Assembly: GCA_903851445.1 (NCBI GenBank)
Contig: CAINOH010000009.1
Coordinates: forward strand, 261,784-325,783
From: an uncultured Candidatus Micrarchaeota archaeon
Lineage (GTDB): Archaea > Micrarchaeota > Micrarchaeia > Norongarragalinales > CAINOH01
Length of the DNA: 64,000 nucleotides
Direction: 5' to 3'
Positions 42,615 to 52,486 of this stretch are shown here, piece after piece. Made by a program: the position numbers and the translations under genes. Below the pieces are notes generated by a model. It was given only the letters and a program-made list of their open reading frames with translations. It made no database searches and was not told the origin of the DNA. Each line of letters begins with the position of its first letter. Positions within the stretch are counted from its first letter, which is position 1.

Positions 42615-43299
42615 GATTTGCATTTTGGGATATGGAAAGATGGGCCGGGCGATTGCCGAGGAAGTTGCGAAAGGCAAGGATGCCAAGGTCACGGTAATTG
42701 TCGACCGCTCCGAGGAGGCGCCAGGAATAGTCCGGCCGGAGAACATCGCGTCCAAGCTTTCCGATTTTGACGTAATCATAGACTTCAGCTCCGCAGTGTC
42801 CAACCCCGTGCTTGTCGAGTGCGCAAAAGCAGGCAAGAGAATCGTAGTTGGCACAACTGCGCGGACAGCAGCTCAGGATGCCGAGCTTGCAGCTGCGGTA
42901 AAGGCAGGAAAGTCAAGCGCGGTGATGGCGCCAAACTTCTCAATAGGGATGAACGCGCTCTTTGCGCTCCTTTCGCAGGCGGACAAGCTCCTTCCGGGCT
43001 ACGACCGCGAGATTGTTGAGGAGCACCACAACCAGAAAAAGGACGCGCCGTCCGGCACCGCAAAGAAGCTCGCGTCAATAATCAACCTCGACCAATCGAA
43101 GGTGCACGCAATCCGCGCTGGCGAGATTTTCGGCGAGCACGAGATAATTTTCGCTGCAAACGGCGAGGTGGTGCGGCTTTCGCACTCCGCACTTTCGCGC
43201 AGGTGCTTTGCAAACGGCGCAGTACGCGCGGCACTATGGCTTCCCAACAAGTCCGACGGCAAGGTCCATTCTTTTTCGGAGGTTCTGGGGATTGAATAG
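42607..43299 (+). CDS. dapB: 4-hydroxy-tetrahydrodipicolinate reductase
   Basis: GYGKMG, DVIIDFS, VVGTT, APNFSIG, EEHHNQKKDAPSGTA, FANGA. Confidence 0.95.
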   Translation: MVRICILGYGKMGRAIAEEVAKGKDAKVTVIVDRSEEAPGIVRPENIASKLSDFDVIIDFSSAVSNPVLVECAKAGKRIVVGTTARTAAQDAELAAAVKAGKSSAVMAPNFSIGMNALFALLSQADKLLPGYDREIVEEHHNQKKDAPSGTAKKLASIINLDQSKVHAIRAGEIFGEHEIIFAANGEVVRLSHSALSRRCFANGAVRAALWLPNKSDGKVHSFSEVLGIE

Positions 43300-44701
43300 G
43301 AAGACCGTAGTCTGCAAGTTCGGAGGAGGCACGCTTTCCTGCCGCGAGGATTTCCTGCGCGCCTCCCGCATCATTTCCGCAAAGCCAGAGCGCGTCATCG
43401 CAGTCGTGTCAGCTGTGCAGGGAGTCACCGACAGGCTTGTGCGAAGCCTTGAGGAGAGCCGCAAGGCCGAAGGCTATGCAAAGGTCTTCTCCGAGGAGTT
43501 CTGCAAAACCCACAAGCAGGTTGCGGACATCCCCGAAATCGACATGCTTTCAGCGAAGCTCGAGTCCGCGCTTTTCAACTCCTATGCCGGCCACAGCCCG
43601 CGGCTTTCCGATTACGTGCTGTCCTTTGGCGAGCGCGCGTCAGCGGCGCTCCTGGGCCACTTTCTCGGGAAGTCCTGCAAGGTCCTTGACTCCGAGTCGG
43701 CAGGAATCGCGTCCAACGGAATCTACGGCAACGCGTCCTGCGACGTGGACAAGACGCGGGAGGGCTTTTGCGCGGCGTTGGATGCGGCAAAGGCCTCAAA
43801 AAACATAGTGGTCACCGGCTTTTACGGCATTGACCAGAACGGCAACGTGAACGTCTTCGGCCGGGGCGGCAGCGACTATTCCGCCGGAGTGATTACTGCG
43901 GTGTCCGGCGCGTCGCGGCTAGAGCTTTACAAGGACGTCGAGGGCTTCCTTGCAGCAGACCCGAAGATGGTCAAGAGCCCCCGGCTTTTGGAAGAGCTGT
44001 CGTTTTCAGAGGCGTCCGAACTAGGTTACTTTGGCGCCAAGATAATCCACCCCCGCACCTTCGACCCCATATCCGGGGCGAACGTGTGCGTGCAGATCCG
44101 GCCTGTTGCAAAACCCGAAAAGGTCGGCACAGTTATCCGCGAACGCGGGGAGGGTATGCACGTTGCCGCAATAGCGTCGCGCAAGGGTGCATCCCTTGTC
44201 GAGATTTATGGCGGCGGGATGGTGAATTCCTTCGGTGTCGCTGCCGAGATATTCACGCGCATGGCAAGGAGTCACATCAGCGTGGACGCAATAGCGACCT
44301 CGCAGACGAACATCTCCTTCACAATCGACCAGTCATCGAGCCTTCGCGCTTCGCAGGCTTTAGAGGCGCTCTCATTGGAACGGCCGGATGTGGTGTGGGT
44401 GTTCAAGGTCACCGACCACCAGGCCATGGTGTCGGTTGTCGGCGGCGCGCTCTCGGCCGAGTCAATCGCGCGCGCATTGCTCTGCCTGTACCGCGGGAAA
44501 ATCGGAATCAAGATGACTTCCTACGGCGCGTCCAAGATAAGCTTCTCGGCAGTGATTGACGTAAAGGATGAGCAGAAGGCTGTTGCCGCATTGTACTCCG
44601 AGTTCTTTTCAGGGGTAAAATCAGGCAGGGGTAATGCCGCCAGGATGGCTGTGCCTGCAAGGGCAGCCACTAAAAGGAAGCTGAAAAAGGCCGCGACCTA
44701 G
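43292..44701 (+). CDS. lysC: Aspartate kinase with ACT domains
   Basis: VCKFGGG, VVSA..GVTD, LSFGER.SA, FGRGGSDYSA, KDVEG...ADP, YFGAKIIHP. TTG start overlaps the dapB stop. Confidence 0.93.
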   Translation: MNRKTVVCKFGGGTLSCREDFLRASRIISAKPERVIAVVSAVQGVTDRLVRSLEESRKAEGYAKVFSEEFCKTHKQVADIPEIDMLSAKLESALFNSYAGHSPRLSDYVLSFGERASAALLGHFLGKSCKVLDSESAGIASNGIYGNASCDVDKTREGFCAALDAAKASKNIVVTGFYGIDQNGNVNVFGRGGSDYSAGVITAVSGASRLELYKDVEGFLAADPKMVKSPRLLEELSFSEASELGYFGAKIIHPRTFDPISGANVCVQIRPVAKPEKVGTVIRERGEGMHVAAIASRKGASLVEIYGGGMVNSFGVAAEIFTRMARSHISVDAIATSQTNISFTIDQSSSLRASQALEALSLERPDVVWVFKVTDHQAMVSVVGGALSAESIARALLCLYRGKIGIKMTSYGASKISFSAVIDVKDEQKAVAALYSEFFSGVKSGRGNAARMAVPARAATKRKLKKAAT

Positions 44702-44738
44702 GCAAACGTTGATTCTTCCAAGCAGGTGATTTTTTCAT

Positions 44739-45800
44739 ATGGACAAGTTGAATGCAGCAGTAGTCGGCGCAACGGGCATAGCAGGCCAGCAGTTCGTGGC
44801 AGCACTTGCAGGCCACCCGTGGTTTGAGGTTACCGCCCTTGCAGGCTCCGAGCGCTCGGCAGGAAAAAAGTACGTAGATGCGCTCTCCAAGGGAAGCTCG
44901 CTGCAGTGGTTCGCCGACGGCCCGGTGCCCGAGCAGATGCGCTCGATGGTGGTAGTGGATTCAAGCCAGCTTGACGCCTCTAAGTTCGACGTCATATTCA
45001 CCGCAGTCGAGTCCGAAGTTGCAAAAAGAATCGAGCCGCTCTACGCAAGGACAACACCCGTGTTCAGCACGGCATCCGCATTCCGCTACGAGCCCGACGT
45101 TCCGCTGATGATTTCCGGGGTGAACCTGGACCACGCAAGCCTCATCGAGGCGCAGAGAAAGAACCGCGGCTGGGAGGGGTTCGTCGCGCCAATTCCCAAT
45201 TGTACCACTACAGGAATGGCCGTGAGCCTGGCCCCGCTTGCAAAGTTCGGCATAGAATCGGTGGTGCTTGTATCGATGCAGGCAGTAAGCGGGGCCGGCC
45301 GCAGCCCGGGCGTGCTCGCCCTTGACATTACTGATAATGTGATTCCCTTCATCGACGGAGAGGAGGACAAGGTGATTGTCGAGACAAAGAAAATACTCGG
45401 CAAAGTCGATGTGGCGTCTGGCAAGGTTGCTGATGCGGAAATCGACGTGGCCACGTCGTGCAACCGCGTTGCAGTGCGCGAGGGGCACACCGAATCGGTG
45501 TTTGCGGTGCTTAAGGACCAGCCCGGACTAGACGAGGTTGCGAAAGCGTGGGAATCATTCGACCCCAAGCTCGGCGTCCCGAGCGAGCCCAGGCCGTTCA
45601 TCACATATCATCGCGACCCGTATAGGCCGCAGCCGCGGCTTGACCGCGACGCCTGCAACGGTCTTTCAACATCGGTTGGAAGGCTGCGAAAACCGGGCCG
45701 GTTCTATCAGTGGACCGTAGTGTCGCACAACACCAAGATTGGCGCTGCAAAGGGCGCGGTGCTCCTTGCGGAGTGCTTAAAGAAGAAGGGTTATTTGTGA
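44739..45800 (+). CDS. asd: Aspartate-semialdehyde dehydrogenase (archaeal type)
   Basis: VVGATG.AG, PNCTT, QAVSGAG, EEDK..ETKKILG, CNRV.V..GH, PQPRLDR, SHNTKIGAA.GA. Confidence 0.96.
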   Translation: MDKLNAAVVGATGIAGQQFVAALAGHPWFEVTALAGSERSAGKKYVDALSKGSSLQWFADGPVPEQMRSMVVVDSSQLDASKFDVIFTAVESEVAKRIEPLYARTTPVFSTASAFRYEPDVPLMISGVNLDHASLIEAQRKNRGWEGFVAPIPNCTTTGMAVSLAPLAKFGIESVVLVSMQAVSGAGRSPGVLALDITDNVIPFIDGEEDKVIVETKKILGKVDVASGKVADAEIDVATSCNRVAVREGHTESVFAVLKDQPGLDEVAKAWESFDPKLGVPSEPRPFITYHRDPYRPQPRLDRDACNGLSTSVGRLRKPGRFYQWTVVSHNTKIGAAKGAVLLAECLKKKGYL

Positions 45801-45849
45801 AAGCCACATTGAATTGGTGGCTATGTGGACAGACTAGAGGGATGCGGAA

Positions 45850-46257
45850 ATGGATGTGCTTGATTCGAGGATTCTTGCGCTTCTTTCAAAGAACTCAAGG
45901 CAGCCGAACAGCGCAATCGCAGCAGCCCTCGGCGTCTCGGAGGGCACGGTGCGCTCGCGGATACGCAACTTGGTGGAGGAAAAGCGGATCCGCAGGTTCA
46001 CAATCGAGACCGGCACCTACGGCTTCCGTGCGGTAATCCTCGTAAAGACCGACCCGTCCAAGCGCACCGAGGATGTACTCCACAGCCTGGTGCTGATGGA
46101 AGGCGTGCGCACCGCTTACGAAGTCAGCGGAAAGTGGGATGCTGTGCTCATCGCGTACTGCAAGGATGCAGAAGTATTCAACGACCTCATCGAGGCAGTG
46201 CGCACCAAGAAGGGCGTGCTTGAGACCGAGAGCTTGGTTGTGCTCAAGGCGCACTGA
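45850..46257 (+). CDS. Lrp/AsnC-family regulator
   Basis: DVLDSRIL..L..NSR, IAAALGVSEGTVRSRI..L, YEVSGKWD. Confidence 0.92.
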   Translation: MDVLDSRILALLSKNSRQPNSAIAAALGVSEGTVRSRIRNLVEEKRIRRFTIETGTYGFRAVILVKTDPSKRTEDVLHSLVLMEGVRTAYEVSGKWDAVLIAYCKDAEVFNDLIEAVRTKKGVLETESLVVLKAH

Positions 46258-46590
46258 TTATTTTTTCAGTTTCTCGTTGCTTGCCTGCATAGAGATTTCC
46301 TCGAGTGCCTTTTTGGCCGTGGCTATTGACTTGGGAGTCCATCCTTTGGCTTTGTTGGCCTCTATTGTCTGCCTTGCCTTGGTGATGTTTAGGGAAAGCG
46401 CCTCGGTCGCACGGTCGATGATTGATGGATGGACGTTCAATGCCATCGCCACGTCAAGGTGATGCTGGCCAAACCGGTTCTTTGCCGCCTCAATCTTTCC
46501 AAGGATTGCGCCTTTTTCGGGCCCGACATTGTGCAGTTTCAAGTAGCTCTCGACGTTATTCCTTCCTATAGCTTCCCTGCTTCCGGCCAT
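46258..46590 (-). CDS. Hypothetical small basic protein
   Basis: 110-aa ORF (alternative ATG 46614) that abuts the lrp stop convergently; no recognised motif. Confidence 0.55.
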   Translation of the reverse strand: MAGSREAIGRNNVESYLKLHNVGPEKGAILGKIEAAKNRFGQHHLDVAMALNVHPSIIDRATEALSLNITKARQTIEANKAKGWTPKSIATAKKALEEISMQASNEKLKK

Positions 46591-46640
46591 AACAAACCAC
46601 TCCACATATAGCATAATTGAATTTCTTTGCATCCTTGTCC

Positions 46641-48923
46641 TTATTTTTTCTTTTCCCCAATCTCGGAAAGGATTGACTTTTCGAACTTCTCAAGGGGCAC
46701 TCCGTTGTGCACCGAGCCGTCGCGCTTCCGCACCGAGACTGACTTTTCATCCTCTTCCTTCTTTCCGATGATGAGCATGTAGGGAATCTTCTGCAGCTGC
46801 GCGTTGCGGATTTTCTGCTCTATTTTTCCCTCGGACTCGTCGAAGAACACGCGGACTTGCTGCAAGGAAAGCGCGTCAACGACCTTCTTTGCATATGCTT
46901 TCTGCGCATCGGTAATCGGCATCACGCATACCTGCACCGGAGACAGCCACGTCGGGAGGTTGCCTGCGTATTTCTCAAGCAGGAATGCGATGAAGCGTTC
47001 GTACGAGCCGAGTATTGCGCGGTGGATGATGACGACGTTCTCCTTCTCGCCCTTTTCGTTGACGTAGACCAGGTTCATGCGCTTTGGTACCAGGATGTCC
47101 ACCTGCACCGTTGCGATGGTGTCCTCCTTTCCGAACGCGTTCCTGATCTGCACGTCGACTTTCGGGCCGTAGAACGCCGCCTCTCCCAGCTCTTCGGTGA
47201 ACTTCATCTTCTCCTTGTTCAACGCGCGGCGGATGTGTTCTGCCGCGTCCTCCCACTTTGCGCGGTCTCCACCGTACTTTTCGGGGTTGCGGTCAAAGTC
47301 AGGGAGCGAAAGCCGGTACCAGTAGTCCGAGATTCCCATGTCGTCGTAGACTTGGCGGAACAGCTTGAGCACTCCGACCACCTCGGCCTCGACCTGGGAG
47401 GCGGTGACGTAGATGTGCGAGTCGTTCTGGGTAAAGCACCGCGCGCGAATCAGGCCGTTCATGGTGCCGGAAAGTTCGTGGCGGTAGCACGTTCCAGCCT
47501 CTGCAAATCGCAGCGGCAAGTCGCGGTAGCTCGTGACCAGTTCCCTGAACATCATGTGGTGGTGCGGGCAGTTCATCGGCTTGAGGTAGTACTGTGCGCC
47601 GTCAATGTCAATCGGCGCGTACATCGACTCGGCATAGTATGGCAGGTGGCCCGAGGCGAAATAGAGCGAGCTTTTCGTGATTGCTGGCGACTGCACGTAC
47701 ACGTAGCCGTACTTTTCCTCGAGGTCGCGCATGTACTCGACTAGGAGGTGTCGAAGAACCTCGCCGTTTGGAAGCCACATCGGCAGGCCCATGCCCACTT
47801 CCTCGGCGAACATGAATATCTTGAGGTCCTTGCCGAGCTTTCGGTGGTCGCGCCTTTCGGCATCAGCTAGGTAAGCGAGGTAGTTGTCGCGGTCAGCAAG
47901 GCTGTCAAACGCGGTTCCGGTTACCCTCTGCAGCTGCCTGTTCTGGCTGCTGTTGAGCCAGTACGCGCCTCCCACTTTCGTTAGCTTGAATGCAACCATC
48001 TTGGATGCGTTGTCAAGCAGGTGGCTGTTTGCAAGGTCCGCAAAGCCGTTCATCTCGGCAATCCGGACCTTTGCGTCCTTTGGAACCTGTTCAAGCAAAT
48101 ATTTGTGATAGGGGTTATGGGCAAACTTTTTCTCGGCATCCGCAACCGAAACCACTTCCGTTGCAATTTTTGCCTTGGACTCGATGATTTTCTCCATCTC
48201 CTGCTCGATGCGCAAGATGTCCGTGTCCGAGAGCGTCTTGTCCGACTCGATGTCCACGAAGTATTCCTCGCCAACCGACGAGTCGGCAACCCTTGCCTTT
48301 GGGAACATCTTCGAAAGCGCAGCTGCGAGTATGAACTGGCAGGTGCTCTTTGCGAGCATCTTTTCGTCCTTTGCGTGCTTGTCGTGGGACGCGCCAGCAA
48401 CGAACTGCAGTATTTCGGGGTCAGCCACTGCCTTTGCGCCCGAATGGCCGTCAATCTTCTTTGCAGTGGTGAGGTTGATTACCTTTGCAATGTCCTTTTC
48501 ATCGCCGCTTCTAATCGTCTTGCTTAACTCAGCAAGCGGGTGGCCCTTGCACTTGAGTTCGAACTCCTTGTAGTAGCCGAACACGCCTTTCTTTGCGTCA
48601 GGCGCGAACTTTCGCACCTCCTTGTGCAGCTCGGCAAGGAGCACCTGCGCCTTGTCCGGCGGGCAGAGGTCGCTTGAAAGGTGGGCATAAGGATTGATGA
48701 AAACCGTTGCTGCCTTGACCTGCTCGAAGTTTTTCCTGATGGCCTCGGCTGCTGCCTGAACTGCCGCGTTGTCGTCTGTTGACTCCATTGTTGTGAAGAC
48801 GACAAGCGCGTTCTCAACGCGGTATCCTGCCTTCTCCTCCTCGGAAAGGTCAGGCAGGGACTTGATTGCCTTGGCCTTGGGCTTCTGGCTAAAGTAGTCG
48901 CAATGCAGTTCGAGTATTCTCAT
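46641..48923 (-). CDS. thrS: Threonyl-tRNA synthetase, chimeric (archaeal editing domain + bacterial-type body)
   Basis: N-terminal LHCDY, PYAHLSS, GYYKEF.LKCKGHPLAELSKTI; then a tRNA_SAD-like domain; RDHRKLG, KPMNCPHH, RARCFTQNDSH, EAAFYGPK, HRAILGSYERF. Confidence 0.96.
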   Translation of the reverse strand: MRILELHCDYFSQKPKAKAIKSLPDLSEEEKAGYRVENALVVFTTMESTDDNAAVQAAAEAIRKNFEQVKAATVFINPYAHLSSDLCPPDKAQVLLAELHKEVRKFAPDAKKGVFGYYKEFELKCKGHPLAELSKTIRSGDEKDIAKVINLTTAKKIDGHSGAKAVADPEILQFVAGASHDKHAKDEKMLAKSTCQFILAAALSKMFPKARVADSSVGEEYFVDIESDKTLSDTDILRIEQEMEKIIESKAKIATEVVSVADAEKKFAHNPYHKYLLEQVPKDAKVRIAEMNGFADLANSHLLDNASKMVAFKLTKVGGAYWLNSSQNRQLQRVTGTAFDSLADRDNYLAYLADAERRDHRKLGKDLKIFMFAEEVGMGLPMWLPNGEVLRHLLVEYMRDLEEKYGYVYVQSPAITKSSLYFASGHLPYYAESMYAPIDIDGAQYYLKPMNCPHHHMMFRELVTSYRDLPLRFAEAGTCYRHELSGTMNGLIRARCFTQNDSHIYVTASQVEAEVVGVLKLFRQVYDDMGISDYWYRLSLPDFDRNPEKYGGDRAKWEDAAEHIRRALNKEKMKFTEELGEAAFYGPKVDVQIRNAFGKEDTIATVQVDILVPKRMNLVYVNEKGEKENVVIIHRAILGSYERFIAFLLEKYAGNLPTWLSPVQVCVMPITDAQKAYAKKVVDALSLQQVRVFFDESEGKIEQKIRNAQLQKIPYMLIIGKKEEDEKSVSVRKRDGSVHNGVPLEKFEKSILSEIGEKKK

Positions 48924-49400: not shown

Positions 49401-50735
49401 TTACGCTTCGAGGACCTTTGCGGCTATGTAACCCGGGTCAAACGGGACCAGGTCGCCGTACTCCTGTCCCACCCCGAAAAACATGATTGGCTTTGCAGCA
49501 TCGTGCGCGATGCTTATGGAGTTGCCGCCCTTGGCGTCGCAGTCCAGCTTGGTAAGGATTATCCCGTCAACCCCGACTGCGGCGTCGAATGACTTCACCT
49601 GCTCGACGAGCACGTGGCCCGCAAGGGCCTCGCCTATGAAAATCTTGAAGTCCGGCTTTGCGACGCGGTCAATCTTCTTCATTTCCTCGATGAGGTTGCG
49701 GTTGGTCTCCTGCCTTCCGGCAGTGTCTATGAGCACAACCGCCGCGCCCGCTGACTGCGCGTGCTTGATTGCGTCAAAGGCAACAGCAGCGGGGTCCGCG
49801 CCGTAGCTCTGCTTTACAAGCTTGACTCCAATCCTGTCCGCGTGTATTGCCGCCTGCTCGATTGCAGCAGCGCGGAAAGTGTCCGATGCCGAGATTACCA
49901 CGTCCAGGCCGTTCTGCTTGAACAGGCTTGCAAGCTTCGCAATCGTGGTGGTCTTGCCTGCGCCGTTCGGACCGAGGAACATTATCTTGAGAACTTCGCC
50001 CTTTGCCTTTTTTTCCCGCGCAAGGGCAATGATGTCCGGCGCTGGTGTAAACACCGACGTGATTGCATCTGCAATCGCGCCATTAATCGTCTTTTCAACT
50101 TCGCTCTTTGCGACCTTCTTGCCAACAAGGCTCTTTTTCAGCTCAAGCACAAGCGCCTGTGCGGTGTCAGACGAGACGTCGCTTTCAAGGAGCGCCATCT
50201 CAAGCTCGTCGAACATTGCCCGGGTCTCGGACTCGGTGATTTCGACTTGGTTTGTGAGCATTCCCTTGAGCTTGGAGAACAGGCCGAGGTCGGGCGCGAT
50301 GTCGCGCCTCTTCTCAACAGCGGGGATTACCGCCGGCTTTGGAATTGCAAATGTTTTTGGGGCTTCGGTGGCCTTTGGAGCAATAGTTGGTTTTTGAGTT
50401 TCAGCAGGTGGTTTTTCAACAGGCTTTGGAACGGCAACTGTTTTTGGAGCCTCGACAGTCTTTGGGGCAACCGTTGGTTTTGGAGTTTCAGCAGCAACTG
50501 GTTTTACAACCTCAACTGGCTTCGGGGCCTCGACAGCAATTTCTTTTTCAATAGCGGGAGTTTCAACTGGGGCAATAATTTCCTTCTCAACAGGTGTGGG
50601 AGTCTCTACTGGTGCGATGATTTCCTTTTCAACAGGAGCGATTTTTTCCTCTGCTTTCGGCTCCTCCCTTGCGCCGACTGCCTCGGTGATTCCCTTCACA
50701 AAGCCGGAGATTTTCTTCTTGAGCAGGTCGAACAC
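49401..50735 (-). CDS. ftsY: SRP receptor FtsY with repetitive N-terminal region
   Basis: GPNGAGKTTTIAKLA, DTFRAAAIEQ, DTAGRQ, TKLDCDAKGG, GVGQEYGDL. Confidence 0.97.
   Translation of the reverse strand: MFDLLKKKISGFVKGITEAVGAREEPKAEEKIAPVEKEIIAPVETPTPVEKEIIAPVETPAIEKEIAVEAPKPVEVVKPVAAETPKPTVAPKTVEAPKTVAVPKPVEKPPAETQKPTIAPKATEAPKTFAIPKPAVIPAVEKRRDIAPDLGLFSKLKGMLTNQVEITESETRAMFDELEMALLESDVSSDTAQALVLELKKSLVGKKVAKSEVEKTINGAIADAITSVFTPAPDIIALAREKKAKGEVLKIMFLGPNGAGKTTTIAKLASLFKQNGLDVVISASDTFRAAAIEQAAIHADRIGVKLVKQSYGADPAAVAFDAIKHAQSAGAAVVLIDTAGRQETNRNLIEEMKKIDRVAKPDFKIFIGEALAGHVLVEQVKSFDAAVGVDGIILTKLDCDAKGGNSISIAHDAAKPIMFFGVGQEYGDLVPFDPGYIAAKVLEA
50330..50640 (-). repeat. Intragenic imperfect tandem repeats in the FtsY A-domain
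   Basis: (P)VEKEIIAPVETP x2-3, then AET(P/Q)KPT(V/I)APK..EAPKT.A.PKP x2. Confidence 0.75.
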
Positions 50736-51963: not shown

Positions 51964-52476
51964 TTATTTGGAGAGCTCGGCAAGCACCGAGCCTTCCTTG
52001 TCCTTGGTGAGGCGTATCTTGATTTTCTTCTGGACCCAGCTTGAGCCGTGCGTGCGGATCTGCTCGTTGACCGAGGTGGCAAGCCGGACTTTTTCAAGCG
52101 GAGCCTTTGCGTGCCTTGCGGCGTACGCGCGGACAATCTTCACCGCCCGCGCAAGCCTCTTGTCCTTTGTCTTGTTGTAGACGTCGGTAAGGTTGACCGT
52201 GCACACGCGCTCAAGTACAATCTCGCGCTTCTTCTCGTCCTTTTTCTCAGCAGCAGGCTTCTTGCTTTCTGCCTTTGCCTTGGATTCAGCGGCCTTTCCT
52301 TTGGCTTCGGCTGCTTTTGCGGAGGCTTCAGCCTTCTTGGCCGGTGCAGCATCAGTCTTCTTTGCAACGGCGTCCTTCTTTTCAGCCGGCATTGTAGTTG
52401 CCACTGCCTTCTTTTCCTCGGCCGGCTTTGCAACAGCTAACGTTTCAGTGTTTTTGGTTGCGGTATTGTCTTCCAT
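51964..52476 (-). CDS. rpl31e: 50S ribosomal protein L31e with long Ala/Lys-rich N-terminal extension
   Basis: C-terminal ERVCTVNL, RLARAVKIVR..AARH, VNEQI..HG, KIKIR; conserved synteny with L39e and eIF6. Confidence 0.9.
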   Translation of the reverse strand: MEDNTATKNTETLAVAKPAEEKKAVATTMPAEKKDAVAKKTDAAPAKKAEASAKAAEAKGKAAESKAKAESKKPAAEKKDEKKREIVLERVCTVNLTDVYNKTKDKRLARAVKIVRAYAARHAKAPLEKVRLATSVNEQIRTHGSSWVQKKIKIRLTKDKEGSVLAELSK

Positions 52477-52486
52477 AGTGTTCAAC

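What the first reader, a model, noticed from the sequence alone, without database searches (positions are those of the whole stretch)
46641..48923. ThrRS fusing an archaeal editing domain to a bacterial-type enzyme with a dead editing site
Seen: an intact archaeal N-terminal editing domain (PYAHLSS, KGHPLAELS), then an N2/tRNA_SAD domain where HxxxH reads KSTCQF and DLCRGPH reads DLANSHL, then a bacterial-type catalytic core. Known: Sulfolobus uses an editing-deficient bacterial-type ThrRS plus a free-standing archaeal editing protein in trans. Inference: this is a cis-fused version of that arrangement, an evolutionary intermediate.
Basis: partly seen in the sequence, partly recalled or inferred. 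Interest (0 to 1): 0.65.

Follow-up and report, generated by a model that had tools for sequence, protein, structure and literature searches.

The report
Chimeric ThrRS with a dead second editing domain
The only threonyl-tRNA synthetase of this tiny Micrarchaeota (DPANN) archaeon carries two proofreading domains of unrelated folds, an intact archaeal one and a bacterial-type one that has lost its active site, and its parts appear to have different ancestries.

Summary
Window 46641-48923 (-) encodes a 760-aa ThrRS with four parts:
- an archaeal DTD-like editing domain (ED, residues 1-137) with every pocket residue intact;
- a roughly 50-aa linker, partly disordered in the model;
- a folded N2 domain (190-354) in which all four editing/Zn residues are replaced;
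- a ThrRS-C ("bacterial-type") catalytic core and anticodon-binding domain with intact Zn ligands.

It is the only ThrRS, and the only ED, found in the 1.09-Mb genome (81% complete).

The architecture is a conserved family rather than a one-off. There are 47 clusters at 90% identity, named Micrarchaeota/Micrarchaeia where named. At least 11 of 301 sampled genomes of the phylum carry it. All 47 lack the HxxxH/CxxxH pair. One basal relative (P0224) still keeps three of the four residues.

The "cis version of the Sulfolobus split system" reading holds as a functional analogy only. The ED is nearest to cis-EDs of Micrarchaeota ThrRS-R enzymes. The catalytic domain nests among DPANN ThrRS-C enzymes. 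The N2 and anticodon-binding domains group with a second ED+N2 clade. This incongruence points to an intragenic mosaic.

I found no description of this architecture in the literature searched. I rate it a new variant of a known kind, of moderate interest.

The parts
46641..48923 (-). thrS: 760-aa chimeric threonyl-tRNA synthetase (P0001), stop codon included
   Evidence: ORF. TIGR00418 scores 600.8 bits against a cut-off of 383.65. It is the only ThrRS found in the genome.
48513..48923 (-). Archaeal DTD-like editing domain (NTD/ED), residues 1-137; predicted active Ser-tRNA(Thr) deacylase
   Evidence: PF08915 scores 125 bits. It scores 104 bits against P. abyssi NTD structures 2hl1/1y2q. pLDDT is about 93-97. 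It is the most conserved domain in the clade, with mean pairwise identity 0.84.
48672..48692 (-). ED pocket motif PYAHLSS (78-84), equivalent to Pab P80-F81-A82-H83
   Evidence: P78, A80 and H81 are invariant in 43/43 ED+N2 proteins, and Y79 in 42/43. Their roles in PabNTD are described in PMC4491819.
48522..48581 (-). ED pocket segment FGYYKEF...KGHPLAELS (115-134), equivalent to Pab F117, Y120, K121, H130, E134
   Evidence: K119, H128 and E132 are invariant in 43/43, and Y118 in 42/43. Alignment to 2hl1.
48357..48512 (-). Linker between ED and N2 (residues 138-189); it replaces the TGS/N1 domain of ThrRS-C
   Evidence: pLDDT is below 50 for residues 140-163. Mean pairwise identity is 0.56 within the clade and 0.10 to clade A. 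No TGS hit.
47862..48356 (-). Degenerate N2 (bacterial-type editing) domain, residues 190-354; fold predicted to be kept, active site lost
   Evidence: It aligns to N2 of S. aureus/E. coli ThrRS and to 1tje. pLDDT is about 90-97 with N2-like secondary structure. Foldseek aligns 583 columns to 1qf6_A. No PF07973 hit.
48333..48350 (-). Relic of the HxxxH motif: KSTCQF (192-197)
   Evidence: Active N2 domains read RHSxAH here. The window protein has S193 and F197 at the two His positions.
48018..48038 (-). Relic of the DxCxxxH motif: DLANSHL (296-302)
   Evidence: Cys becomes A298 and His becomes L302, while D296 is kept.
46959..47861 (-). Class II catalytic domain of ThrRS-C type (residues 355-655) with Zn ligands C452, H503, H634
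   Evidence: PF00587. C452, H503 and H634 are invariant in alignment A1. The catalytic tree places it with DPANN ThrRS-C enzymes P0122/P0123 at 99/99. TMt is 0.93-0.94 to E. coli catalytic-domain structures.
46644..46958 (-). HGTP anticodon-binding domain (residues 656-760)
   Evidence: PF03129 scores 78 bits. In the ABD tree the window clade nests inside ED+N2 clade A at 98/96.

Best explanation
What it is. This is the housekeeping threonyl-tRNA synthetase of a Candidatus Micrarchaeia (DPANN) archaeon.

How it most likely works:
- The ThrRS-C-type catalytic core activates threonine and charges tRNA-Thr. This is inferred from the intact class II motifs and Zn ligands.
- Serine is occasionally mischarged. 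The 3' end carrying it is then handed to the N-terminal DTD-like editing domain, which sits on a flexible linker and hydrolyses Ser-tRNA(Thr). This is inferred from the strictly conserved pocket.
- The N2 domain between them has lost all four editing/Zn residues, so it does not edit. It is still folded and under constraint. It most likely serves as a structural spacer or acceptor-arm platform, as N2 does in the E. coli ThrRS-tRNA complex. This step is inference.

How it most likely arose:
- A Micrarchaeota ThrRS-C of TGS-N2-cat-ABD type had its TGS domain replaced by the editing domain of a co-circulating archaeal ThrRS-R.
- N2 then decayed because it had become redundant.
- In the window's lineage the catalytic domain was later exchanged for that of another DPANN ThrRS-C lineage, giving an intragenic mosaic.
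For: Function:
- TIGR00418 is over its cut-off, with class II and anticodon domains.
- Zn ligands C452, H503 and H634 are invariant.
- Only one ThrRS, one ED and no free N2/AlaX are found in the genome.
- ED pocket residues P78, Y79, A80, H81, Y118, K119 and E132 are invariant or nearly so (42-43 of 43). They match the seven PabNTD side chains within 6 A of the scissile bond.
- The ED is the most conserved domain (0.84 identity, against 0.81 for the core and 0.64 for N2).
- tRNA-Thr(UGU) has U73, the base thought to be needed by archaeal EDs (PMC11295145).
- The N2 tetrad is absent in 47/47 homologues.
- The N2 fold is predicted with confidence and superposes on 1qf6/1nyq.

History:
- In the core and catalytic trees the window clade lies inside DPANN ThrRS-C with P0122/P0123, far from clade A. 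AU tests reject one ED+N2 clade (p=0.0023 and p=1.6e-5).
- In the N2 tree all dead N2 domains fall on one side of a branch (98/98), and window+P0122/3 is rejected (p=1.4e-4).
- In the ABD tree the window clade nests in clade A (98/96).
- Identity to P0122/3 is 0.74-0.82 over residues 370-650 and falls to 0.39-0.54 in the ABD.
- EDs of ED+N2 proteins interleave with Micrarchaeota ThrRS-R EDs.
- P0224 keeps HxxxH plus Cys.
- The same-family genome G086 carries a TGS+active-N2 ThrRS of the clade-A sister lineage, near the same eIF6-prefoldin-FtsY neighbourhood.
Against: - There is no biochemical evidence at all. Charging, editing by the ED and inactivity of N2 are all inferred from sequence.
- PabNTD tolerates loss of several pocket side chains (PMC4491819). 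Residue conservation therefore shows constraint, not mechanism.
- The N2 grouping may reflect shared loss of constraint or long-branch attraction. treekit warned that long branches meet.
- For the ABD, the alternative window+P0122/3 clade is not rejected (AU p=0.093).
- The linkers of the window clade and clade A share no detectable similarity (0.10 identity). That fits independent fusions as well as it fits fast drift.
- I named the groups for the AU tests after seeing a preliminary tree.
- The genome is only 81% complete, so a second ThrRS or a trans-editing factor could have been missed.
Confidence: 0.72

Rival explanations
1. There was no intragenic recombination. The archaeal ED was fused independently to two different ThrRS-C lineages (clade A and the window clade). 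Each N2 then decayed on its own. The dead N2 domains, and to a lesser degree the ABDs, group together only by convergence or long-branch attraction.
For: The whole-core tree gives two well-separated ED+N2 clades, each with its own TGS+N2 sister. The linkers share no similarity. The ABD alternative is not rejected (p=0.093). treekit warned of long branches in the N2 tree. A third ED+ThrRS-C group without N2 shows that ED capture is recurrent in DPANN.
Against: The N2 constraint window+P0122/3 is rejected (p=1.4e-4) under a site-heterogeneous model. The ABD is functional in every protein, yet it also places the window clade inside clade A at 98/96. Identity to P0122/3 drops sharply at the catalytic/ABD boundary. 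The first His is replaced by Asn in most of the window clade and in much of clade A.
Confidence: 0.22
2. The N2 domain still has a catalytic job. This could be editing by a non-canonical mechanism or deacylation of another mischarged tRNA, so that the enzyme has two working editing sites.
For: N2 is folded. It is conserved at 0.64 mean identity within the clade. It keeps D296 and the GAYW and LQR motifs.
Against: All four residues of the HxxxH/CxxxH tetrad are gone in 47/47 proteins. The replacements differ between subclades (S/N, F/L, A/Y/L, L/A/F), as expected for a relaxed site. PF07973 is not detected. Editing-defective mutants at these positions in E. coli ThrRS are established knowledge (Dock-Bregeon 2000, 2004; C182 in PMC4041444, listed).
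Confidence: 0.05
3. Neither domain edits. The enzyme is an error-prone ThrRS of a reduced genome, and the ED is kept for another role such as binding.
For: Reduced genomes are known to tolerate editing-deficient synthetases (general knowledge; not tested here).
Against: The ED is the most conserved part of the protein, with an invariant pocket. Its sequence is 54-65% identical to the EDs of ordinary ThrRS-R enzymes in related genomes.
Confidence: 0.04
4. The gene is an assembly chimera of two ThrRS genes in a metagenome bin.
For: The genome is a MAG of 25 contigs. ThrRS-R and ThrRS-C both circulate in the group.
Against: The same collinear architecture occurs in 47 clusters from independent sources (NCBI, JGI, ENA, Logan). 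One sits on a 533-kb contig and another is an 89%-identical copy in a separate MAG. The ORF is uninterrupted and composition is even across it.
Confidence: 0.01

Closest known systems
Crenarchaeal split ThrRS system: ThrRS-cat plus free-standing ThrRS-ed (Sulfolobus, Aeropyrum; Korencic et al. 2004; PDB 3a31 and 4rr6)
   Same: Both combine a ThrRS-C-type catalytic enzyme that cannot edit with an archaeal DTD-like domain that supplies Ser-tRNA(Thr) hydrolysis.
   Different: Here the two activities sit in one polypeptide, and a full-length but dead N2 domain is retained between them. A. pernix ThrRS-1 matches the core only (187 bits) and has no N2. NF011500 (Ser-tRNA(Thr) hydrolase) matches only its ED part, at 146 bits against a cut-off of 362. 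The ED is nearest to Micrarchaeota cis-EDs, not to the crenarchaeal one.
Canonical archaeal ThrRS (ThrRS-R; e.g. P. abyssi, M. jannaschii; NF003068/PRK03991)
   Same: Both have an N-terminal DTD-like editing domain with the same pocket residues, followed by a linker and then a class II core.
   Different: The core here is of the other ancient type, ThrRS-C. NF003068 scores 335 bits against a cut-off of 484. ThrRS-R cores lie across a 100/100 branch. ThrRS-R has no N2 domain.
Bacterial/eukaryotic-type ThrRS (ThrRS-C; E. coli 1qf6, S. aureus 1nyq), also present in about 30% of archaeal genomes (PMC12003907)
   Same: N2, catalytic domain and anticodon-binding domain are collinear. The model superposes over about 583 columns. 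Identity is 46-48% to Woesearchaeota, CPR and Deinococcota enzymes.
   Different: TGS/N1 is replaced by the ED plus a linker. The N2 editing tetrad is lost.
DPANN ED+ThrRS-C enzymes without N2 (about 560-585 aa; Aenigmarchaeota, Woesearchaeota, Pacearchaeota, Nanoarchaeota MAGs)
   Same: Both join an archaeal ED to a ThrRS-C core. The cores are 53-61% identical to the window's.
   Different: They have no N2 domain at all. Their ED is a more distant type (60-115 bits against 150-180 for Micrarchaeota EDs). They form a separate clade in the core tree.
ThrRS 'homeoalleles' ThrRS-R and ThrRS-C (Andam et al. 2011, PMC3191353)
   Same: Both types circulate within one archaeal group, with one per genome. 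Here even a single genus (g9) holds both an ED+N2 enzyme and ThrRS-R enzymes.
   Different: That paper treats the two types as whole-gene alternatives that are unlikely to recombine, at about 29% identity. This protein joins a ThrRS-R module to a ThrRS-C body.

Membership tests
Threonine--tRNA ligase (TIGR00418 thrS) | Whole-protein profile score over the curated cut-off | tested here: met
   600.8 bits against a cut-off of 383.65, covering residues 195-754.
Threonine--tRNA ligase (TIGR00418 thrS) | Class II catalytic core with the three Zn ligands (E. coli C334, H385, H511), plus an HGTP anticodon-binding domain | tested here: met
   PF00587 and PF03129. C452, H503 and H634 are invariant in alignment A1.
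Threonine--tRNA ligase (TIGR00418 thrS) | Thr-tRNA(Thr) synthesis activity | not testable with these tools
   Indirect support only: it is the sole ThrRS found in the genome, which is 81% complete.
ThrRS-C (bacterial/eukaryotic-type ThrRS) | Catalytic core belongs to the ThrRS-C clade | tested here: met
   100/100 split from ThrRS-R cores. The window clade nests among DPANN and bacterial ThrRS-C enzymes.
ThrRS-C (bacterial/eukaryotic-type ThrRS) | N2 editing domain with the HxxxH and CxxxH residues | tested here: not met
   The fold is present, but the four residues are S193, F197, A298 and L302. No PF07973 hit.
ThrRS-C (bacterial/eukaryotic-type ThrRS) | N-terminal TGS (N1) domain | tested here: not met
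   No PF02824 hit. The N-terminus is PF08915 instead. Many CPR and DPANN ThrRS-C enzymes also lack TGS.
Canonical archaeal ThrRS (ThrRS-R, NF003068) | DTD-like N-terminal editing domain (PF08915) | tested here: met
   125 bits against a cut-off of 30.2. Alignment to 2hl1/1y2q over residues 1-138.
Canonical archaeal ThrRS (ThrRS-R, NF003068) | ThrRS-R-type catalytic core / whole-protein score over the cut-off | tested here: not met
   335 bits against a cut-off of 484. The core is separated from ThrRS-R cores by a 100/100 branch.
Archaeal ThrRS NTD editing module (PabNTD type) | Pocket residues within 6 A of the scissile bond (Pab P80, F81, A82, H83, Y120, K121, E134) | tested here: met
   The equivalents are P78, Y79, A80, H81, Y118, K119 and E132, invariant or 42/43 across ED+N2 proteins.
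Archaeal ThrRS NTD editing module (PabNTD type) | Ser-tRNA(Thr)-specific deacylation | not testable with these tools
   The tRNA-Thr(UGU) of the genome has U73, G1-C72 and C2-G71. This is compatible with archaeal ED specificity (PMC11295145).
Crenarchaeal split system (ThrRS-cat + ThrRS-ed) | Editing and charging are encoded by two separate genes | tested here: not met
   One gene carries both. PF08915 and ThrRS each occur once in the genome, in the same ORF.
Crenarchaeal split system (ThrRS-cat + ThrRS-ed) | ThrRS-ed protein (NF011500 Ser-tRNA(Thr) hydrolase): ED plus degenerate core plus ABD | tested here: not met
   146 bits against a cut-off of 362. Only profile positions 1-146 of 387 match.

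The most novel reading that the evidence does not exclude
ThrRS genes in Micrarchaeota/DPANN may evolve by domain-level recombination between and within the two ancient ThrRS types. The window's enzyme would then be a three-source mosaic. Its ED would come from a ThrRS-R enzyme. Its dead N2 and ABD would come from a resident Micrarchaeota ThrRS-C lineage. Its catalytic domain would come from another DPANN ThrRS-C lineage. The dead N2 would be retained because it has become an obligatory tRNA acceptor-arm platform or hand-off scaffold for a foreign editing domain. That would make it a natural case of one editing module being functionally replaced by a non-homologous one inside a single synthetase.
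Probability: 0.4. Interest if true: 0.7.

Novelty: new variant of a known kind. Interest (0 to 1): 0.55.

Why it matters
ThrRS is the textbook case of two unrelated editing solutions to one problem, the removal of Ser-tRNA(Thr). Recent work treats the N2 type and the DTD-like type as mutually exclusive alternatives across lineages (PMC12003907, PMC11295145). It treats the two ThrRS types as whole-gene "homeoalleles" that are unlikely to recombine (PMC3191353).

This family puts both editing folds in one chain, with one of them decayed. One basal relative (P0224) is only part-decayed. It therefore offers a natural record of non-homologous replacement of an editing site.

It also gives a direct experimental handle on two open questions. 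What does N2 contribute besides catalysis? How does a DTD-like domain reach the 3' end on a ThrRS-C body?

None of the domains is new, and the cellular function is ordinary tRNA-Thr charging with proofreading.

Tried and rejected
- Standard archaeal architecture: rejected. NF003068 is under its cut-off, and the core tree separates the core from ThrRS-R.
- Specific kinship with the crenarchaeal ThrRS-cat/ThrRS-ed pair: not supported. No crenarchaeal sequences were included in my trees, so this rests on scores only.
- A second ThrRS, a free ED or a free N2/AlaX in the genome: none found.
- A member with an ED and a fully intact N2, which would be a true dual-editing intermediate: none among the 47 clusters or the 50%-identity representatives. 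The best is P0224, with three of four residues.
- Shared linker homology or shared indels between the window clade and clade A, as proof of one fusion event: none convincing.
- ED tree as a test of one fusion against several: too few columns (140), and most deep forks are unresolved.
- Literature searches for the architecture (ThrRS+DPANN/Micrarchaeota, ThrRS-R/-C, PF08915, two editing domains) found no description. Korencic 2004 could not be opened.
- Promoter/terminator scan around the gene: nothing above shuffled expectation, and the sigma-70 model is not apt for archaea.
- Earlier scan notes: none concerned this architecture.
Full report
**1. What is there**

Window 46641-48923 (-) is one uninterrupted ORF of 760 aa, P0001. 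Pfam finds three domains:
- the archaea-specific ThrRS editing domain PF08915 at residues 1-137 (125 bits);
- the class II core PF00587 at 442-652;
- the HGTP anticodon-binding domain PF03129 at 664-752.

Pfam finds no tRNA_SAD (PF07973) and no TGS domain. NCBIfam thrS (TIGR00418) scores 600.8 bits, over its cut-off of 383.65. The canonical archaeal ThrRS model NF003068 scores 335 bits, under its cut-off of 484. The crenarchaeal Ser-tRNA(Thr) hydrolase model NF011500 matches only through the ED, at 146 bits against a cut-off of 362.

Against solved structures, residues 184-759 align collinearly with S. aureus and E. coli ThrRS from the first residues of N2 onward (454 and 367 bits). Residues 1-138 align end to end with the P. 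abyssi N-terminal editing domain.

**2. State of the two editing domains**

*The archaeal ED.* The seven side chains that lie within 6 A of the scissile bond in PabNTD are P80, F81, A82, H83, Y120, K121 and E134 (PMC4491819). Here they correspond to P78, Y79, A80, H81, Y118, K119 and E132. Across 43 ED+N2 proteins these are invariant or 42/43. The ED is also the most conserved domain within the window's clade. Mean pairwise identities are 0.84 for the ED, 0.81 for the catalytic domain, 0.73 for the ABD, 0.64 for N2 and 0.56 for the linker.

*The N2 domain.* Active N2 domains read RHSxAH...DLCxGPH. The window protein reads KSTCQF...DLANSHL. Under the MAFFT alignment, the two His, the Cys and the last His are S193, F197, A298 and L302 (numbering). 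HMMER places the first His at K192 instead. No His is there under either alignment.

All 47 long-form homologues (720-775 aa) lack the tetrad, and the replacements differ between subclades. The domain has nevertheless not dissolved:
- It keeps the GAYW and LQR(I/V)xG segments at its C-terminal end.
- AlphaFold2 on a 74-sequence alignment gives mean pLDDT 89.6. N2 scores about 90-97, and only residues 140-163 of the ED-N2 linker are disordered.
- Foldseek aligns about 583 columns to full-length 1qf6 and 1nyq.

The catalytic Zn ligands C452, H503 and H634 are invariant.

**3. Genomic setting**

The genome is a 1.09-Mb, 25-contig, 81%-complete assembly. An 89%-identical gene lies in a MAG titled Candidatus Micrarchaeia archaeon. 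Named homologues are Micrarchaeota or Micrarchaeia.

PF08915 and ThrRS each occur once in the genome, in this ORF. The only tRNA_SAD match is a 950-aa AlaRS-sized ORF. The enzyme is therefore the cell's only visible means of charging and proofreading tRNA-Thr.

Both tRNA-Thr genes found begin G1-C2-C3. The structure printed for tRNA-Thr(UGU) shows G1-C72, C2-G71 and the archaeal discriminator U73. U73 is thought to underlie the tRNA specificity of archaeal EDs (PMC11295145).

**4. How common**

- At 90% clustering there are 47 ED+N2 proteins.
- At 50% clustering about a dozen representatives show both domains.
- In 301 genomes sampled from the phylum, at least 11 have a single ORF that matches both the ED and N2.
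- The rest mostly have 620-660-aa ED+ThrRS-R enzymes, 560-585-aa ED+ThrRS-C enzymes without N2, or N2-type enzymes.

The distribution is patchy. Genus g9 contains one ED+N2 genome (744 aa) and two ThrRS-R genomes (632 and 633 aa). The only other sampled genus of the window's own family (G086) has a 640-aa TGS+N2 ThrRS with intact WHSASH and DMCRGPH motifs. That gene lies about 5 kb from the same eIF6-prefoldin-FtsY block that flanks thrS in the window.

**5. Ancestry of the parts**

I built careful IQ-TREE trees (LG+C20 PMSF). Core, catalytic-domain and ABD trees used 76 sequences, including named bacteria and DPANN archaea. The N2 tree used the 43 of them that carry an N2 domain.

*Core and catalytic domain.*
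- ThrRS-R cores are separated by a 100/100 branch.
- The window clade nests in a DPANN ThrRS-C clade (100/99). It groups with TGS+active-N2 proteins P0122/P0123 (100/97) and next with a TGS+N2 group whose named members are Diapherotrites.
- The other 30 ED+N2 proteins (clade A) form a distant clade with their own TGS+N2 sisters, P0041/P0095 (98/98). Bona fide bacterial sequences branch in between.
- Forcing all ED+N2 cores together costs 212 log-likelihood units (AU p=0.0023). For the catalytic domain alone the cost is 208 units (p=1.6e-5).

*N2.* All dead N2 domains fall on one side of a 98/98 branch. Window+P0122/3 is rejected (p=1.4e-4).

*ABD.* The window clade nests inside clade A (98/96). 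The alternative is not formally rejected (p=0.093).

*Sliding identity.* P0001 is 0.74-0.82 identical to P0122/3 over residues 370-650. This falls to 0.39-0.54 in the ABD, where clade A is equal or higher in three of four windows.

*ED.* The EDs of ED+N2 proteins interleave with the EDs of Micrarchaeota ThrRS-R enzymes and are far from the EDs of the N2-less DPANN forms. The 140-column tree is weak.

*A part-decayed member.* P0224 (710 aa) is nearest to the basal clade-A member P0049. It still has WHTSAH and DLCEGEF, which is three of the four N2 residues.

*Reading.* A Micrarchaeota ThrRS-C of the P0041/P0095/G086 lineage most likely had its TGS domain replaced by an ED taken from a ThrRS-R. 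N2 then decayed. The window lineage later swapped in a catalytic domain from another DPANN ThrRS-C lineage.

The main rival is independent fusion in two lineages, with the dead N2 domains attracted to each other in the tree. I cannot exclude it. The linkers share no similarity, long branches are in play, and I named the AU groups after seeing a preliminary tree.

**6. Mechanism**

*Shown.* Domain composition, residue states, predicted fold, uniqueness in the genome and conservation pattern.

*Inferred.*
- The ThrRS-C core charges tRNA-Thr.
- Ser-tRNA(Thr) is cleared by the ED, tethered on a flexible linker of roughly 25-50 residues.
- N2 is catalytically inert. It persists as a spacer or acceptor-arm platform. 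This draws on established knowledge that the N-terminal domains clamp the acceptor arm in 1qf6, and that N-terminally truncated E. coli ThrRS still charges tRNA but cannot edit (Dock-Bregeon 2000).

Why an ED should displace a working N2 is speculative. N2 editing depends on an oxidation-sensitive Cys (PMC4041444, listed), and the authors of PMC12003907 suggest the DTD-like fold is more robust.

**7. Comparison with what is known**

The enzyme works like the crenarchaeal ThrRS-cat/ThrRS-ed pair joined in cis, but it is not a member of that system. It has one gene rather than two, NF011500 is under its cut-off, the ED is nearer to cis-EDs, and A. pernix ThrRS-1 has no N2. It also fails one defining feature each of canonical ThrRS-R (core type) and canonical ThrRS-C (N2 tetrad, TGS).

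[quoted passage not shown] Five searches found no description of an ED+N2 enzyme. Databases annotate these proteins simply as threonine--tRNA ligase.

**8. Verdict**

This is a real, conserved and apparently undescribed ThrRS architecture. It is a new variant of a known kind, with an ordinary cellular role and an unusually legible evolutionary history. Interest is moderate (0.55). It would be higher if the mosaic history and a scaffold role for the dead N2 were demonstrated.

Noticed in passing
P0041 (808 aa, ENA metagenome protein; not in the window): This ThrRS-C has a TGS domain followed by two tandem N2 domains, both with HxxxH and DLCxGPH motifs. Pfam reports two tRNA_SAD stretches. It is the sister of ED+N2 clade A in the core tree.
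   Followed up: partly
P0137 (738 aa), P0160 (684 aa), P0035 (939 aa); related long ORFs in G245 (936 aa): These ThrRS proteins carry a YbaK/ProX-type editing domain (PF04073) inserted after the archaeal ED. P0035 has the order ED + PF04073 + dead N2 + core, that is three editing-type modules in one chain.
   Followed up: partly
P0063-P0212 (82 clusters; MAGs named Aenigmarchaeota, Woesearchaeota, Pacearchaeota, Nanoarchaeota): There is a large DPANN group of ThrRS proteins about 560-585 aa long, with an archaeal ED joined directly to a ThrRS-C-type core and no N2. In the core tree it is a separate clade nested among TGS+N2 and N2-only DPANN forms. That implies a further, independent capture of the ED.
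   Followed up: partly
G086:C1:225599-227278 (locus L089 7775-9697): The only other sampled genus of the window's family has a conventional TGS+active-N2 ThrRS that is 39% identical to the window's. It lies about 5 kb from the same eIF6-prefoldin-FtsY block, which suggests allele replacement near a conserved locus.
   Followed up: partly
G288, G284 (810 aa); G282, G215, G070 (786 aa); G264 (784 aa); P0238 (784 aa), P0309 (772 aa): Further ED-bearing ThrRS ORFs of 770-810 aa occur in the same phylum. In the alignment made here, P0238 and P0309 carry extra sequence between the ED and the core with a PC(R/K)xxH motif. Domain identity was not determined.
   Followed up: no
window 43208-46257 (+): Aspartate kinase (with ACT domains), aspartate-semialdehyde dehydrogenase and an Lrp/AsnC regulator lie next to thrS and converge on it. 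These are the first steps of the threonine/lysine/methionine branch, an unusual retention for a 1.1-Mb DPANN genome.
   Followed up: partly
window 46258-46632 (-): A 124-aa ORF starts 8 nt downstream of the thrS stop codon on the same strand. It has no Pfam match and is conserved at 70% identity at the same position in the related MAG (L008).
   Followed up: partly
window 49401-50735 (-): FtsY has an N-terminal extension of about 150 aa made of Pro/Val/Glu/Lys-rich repeats (PVEKEIIAPVETP and similar) before the SRP54 N and GTPase domains.
   Followed up: no
window 51964-52485 (-): The ribosomal protein L31e homologue carries a Lys/Ala/Glu-rich N-terminal extension of about 90 aa. The Pfam match covers only residues 92-161.
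   Followed up: no
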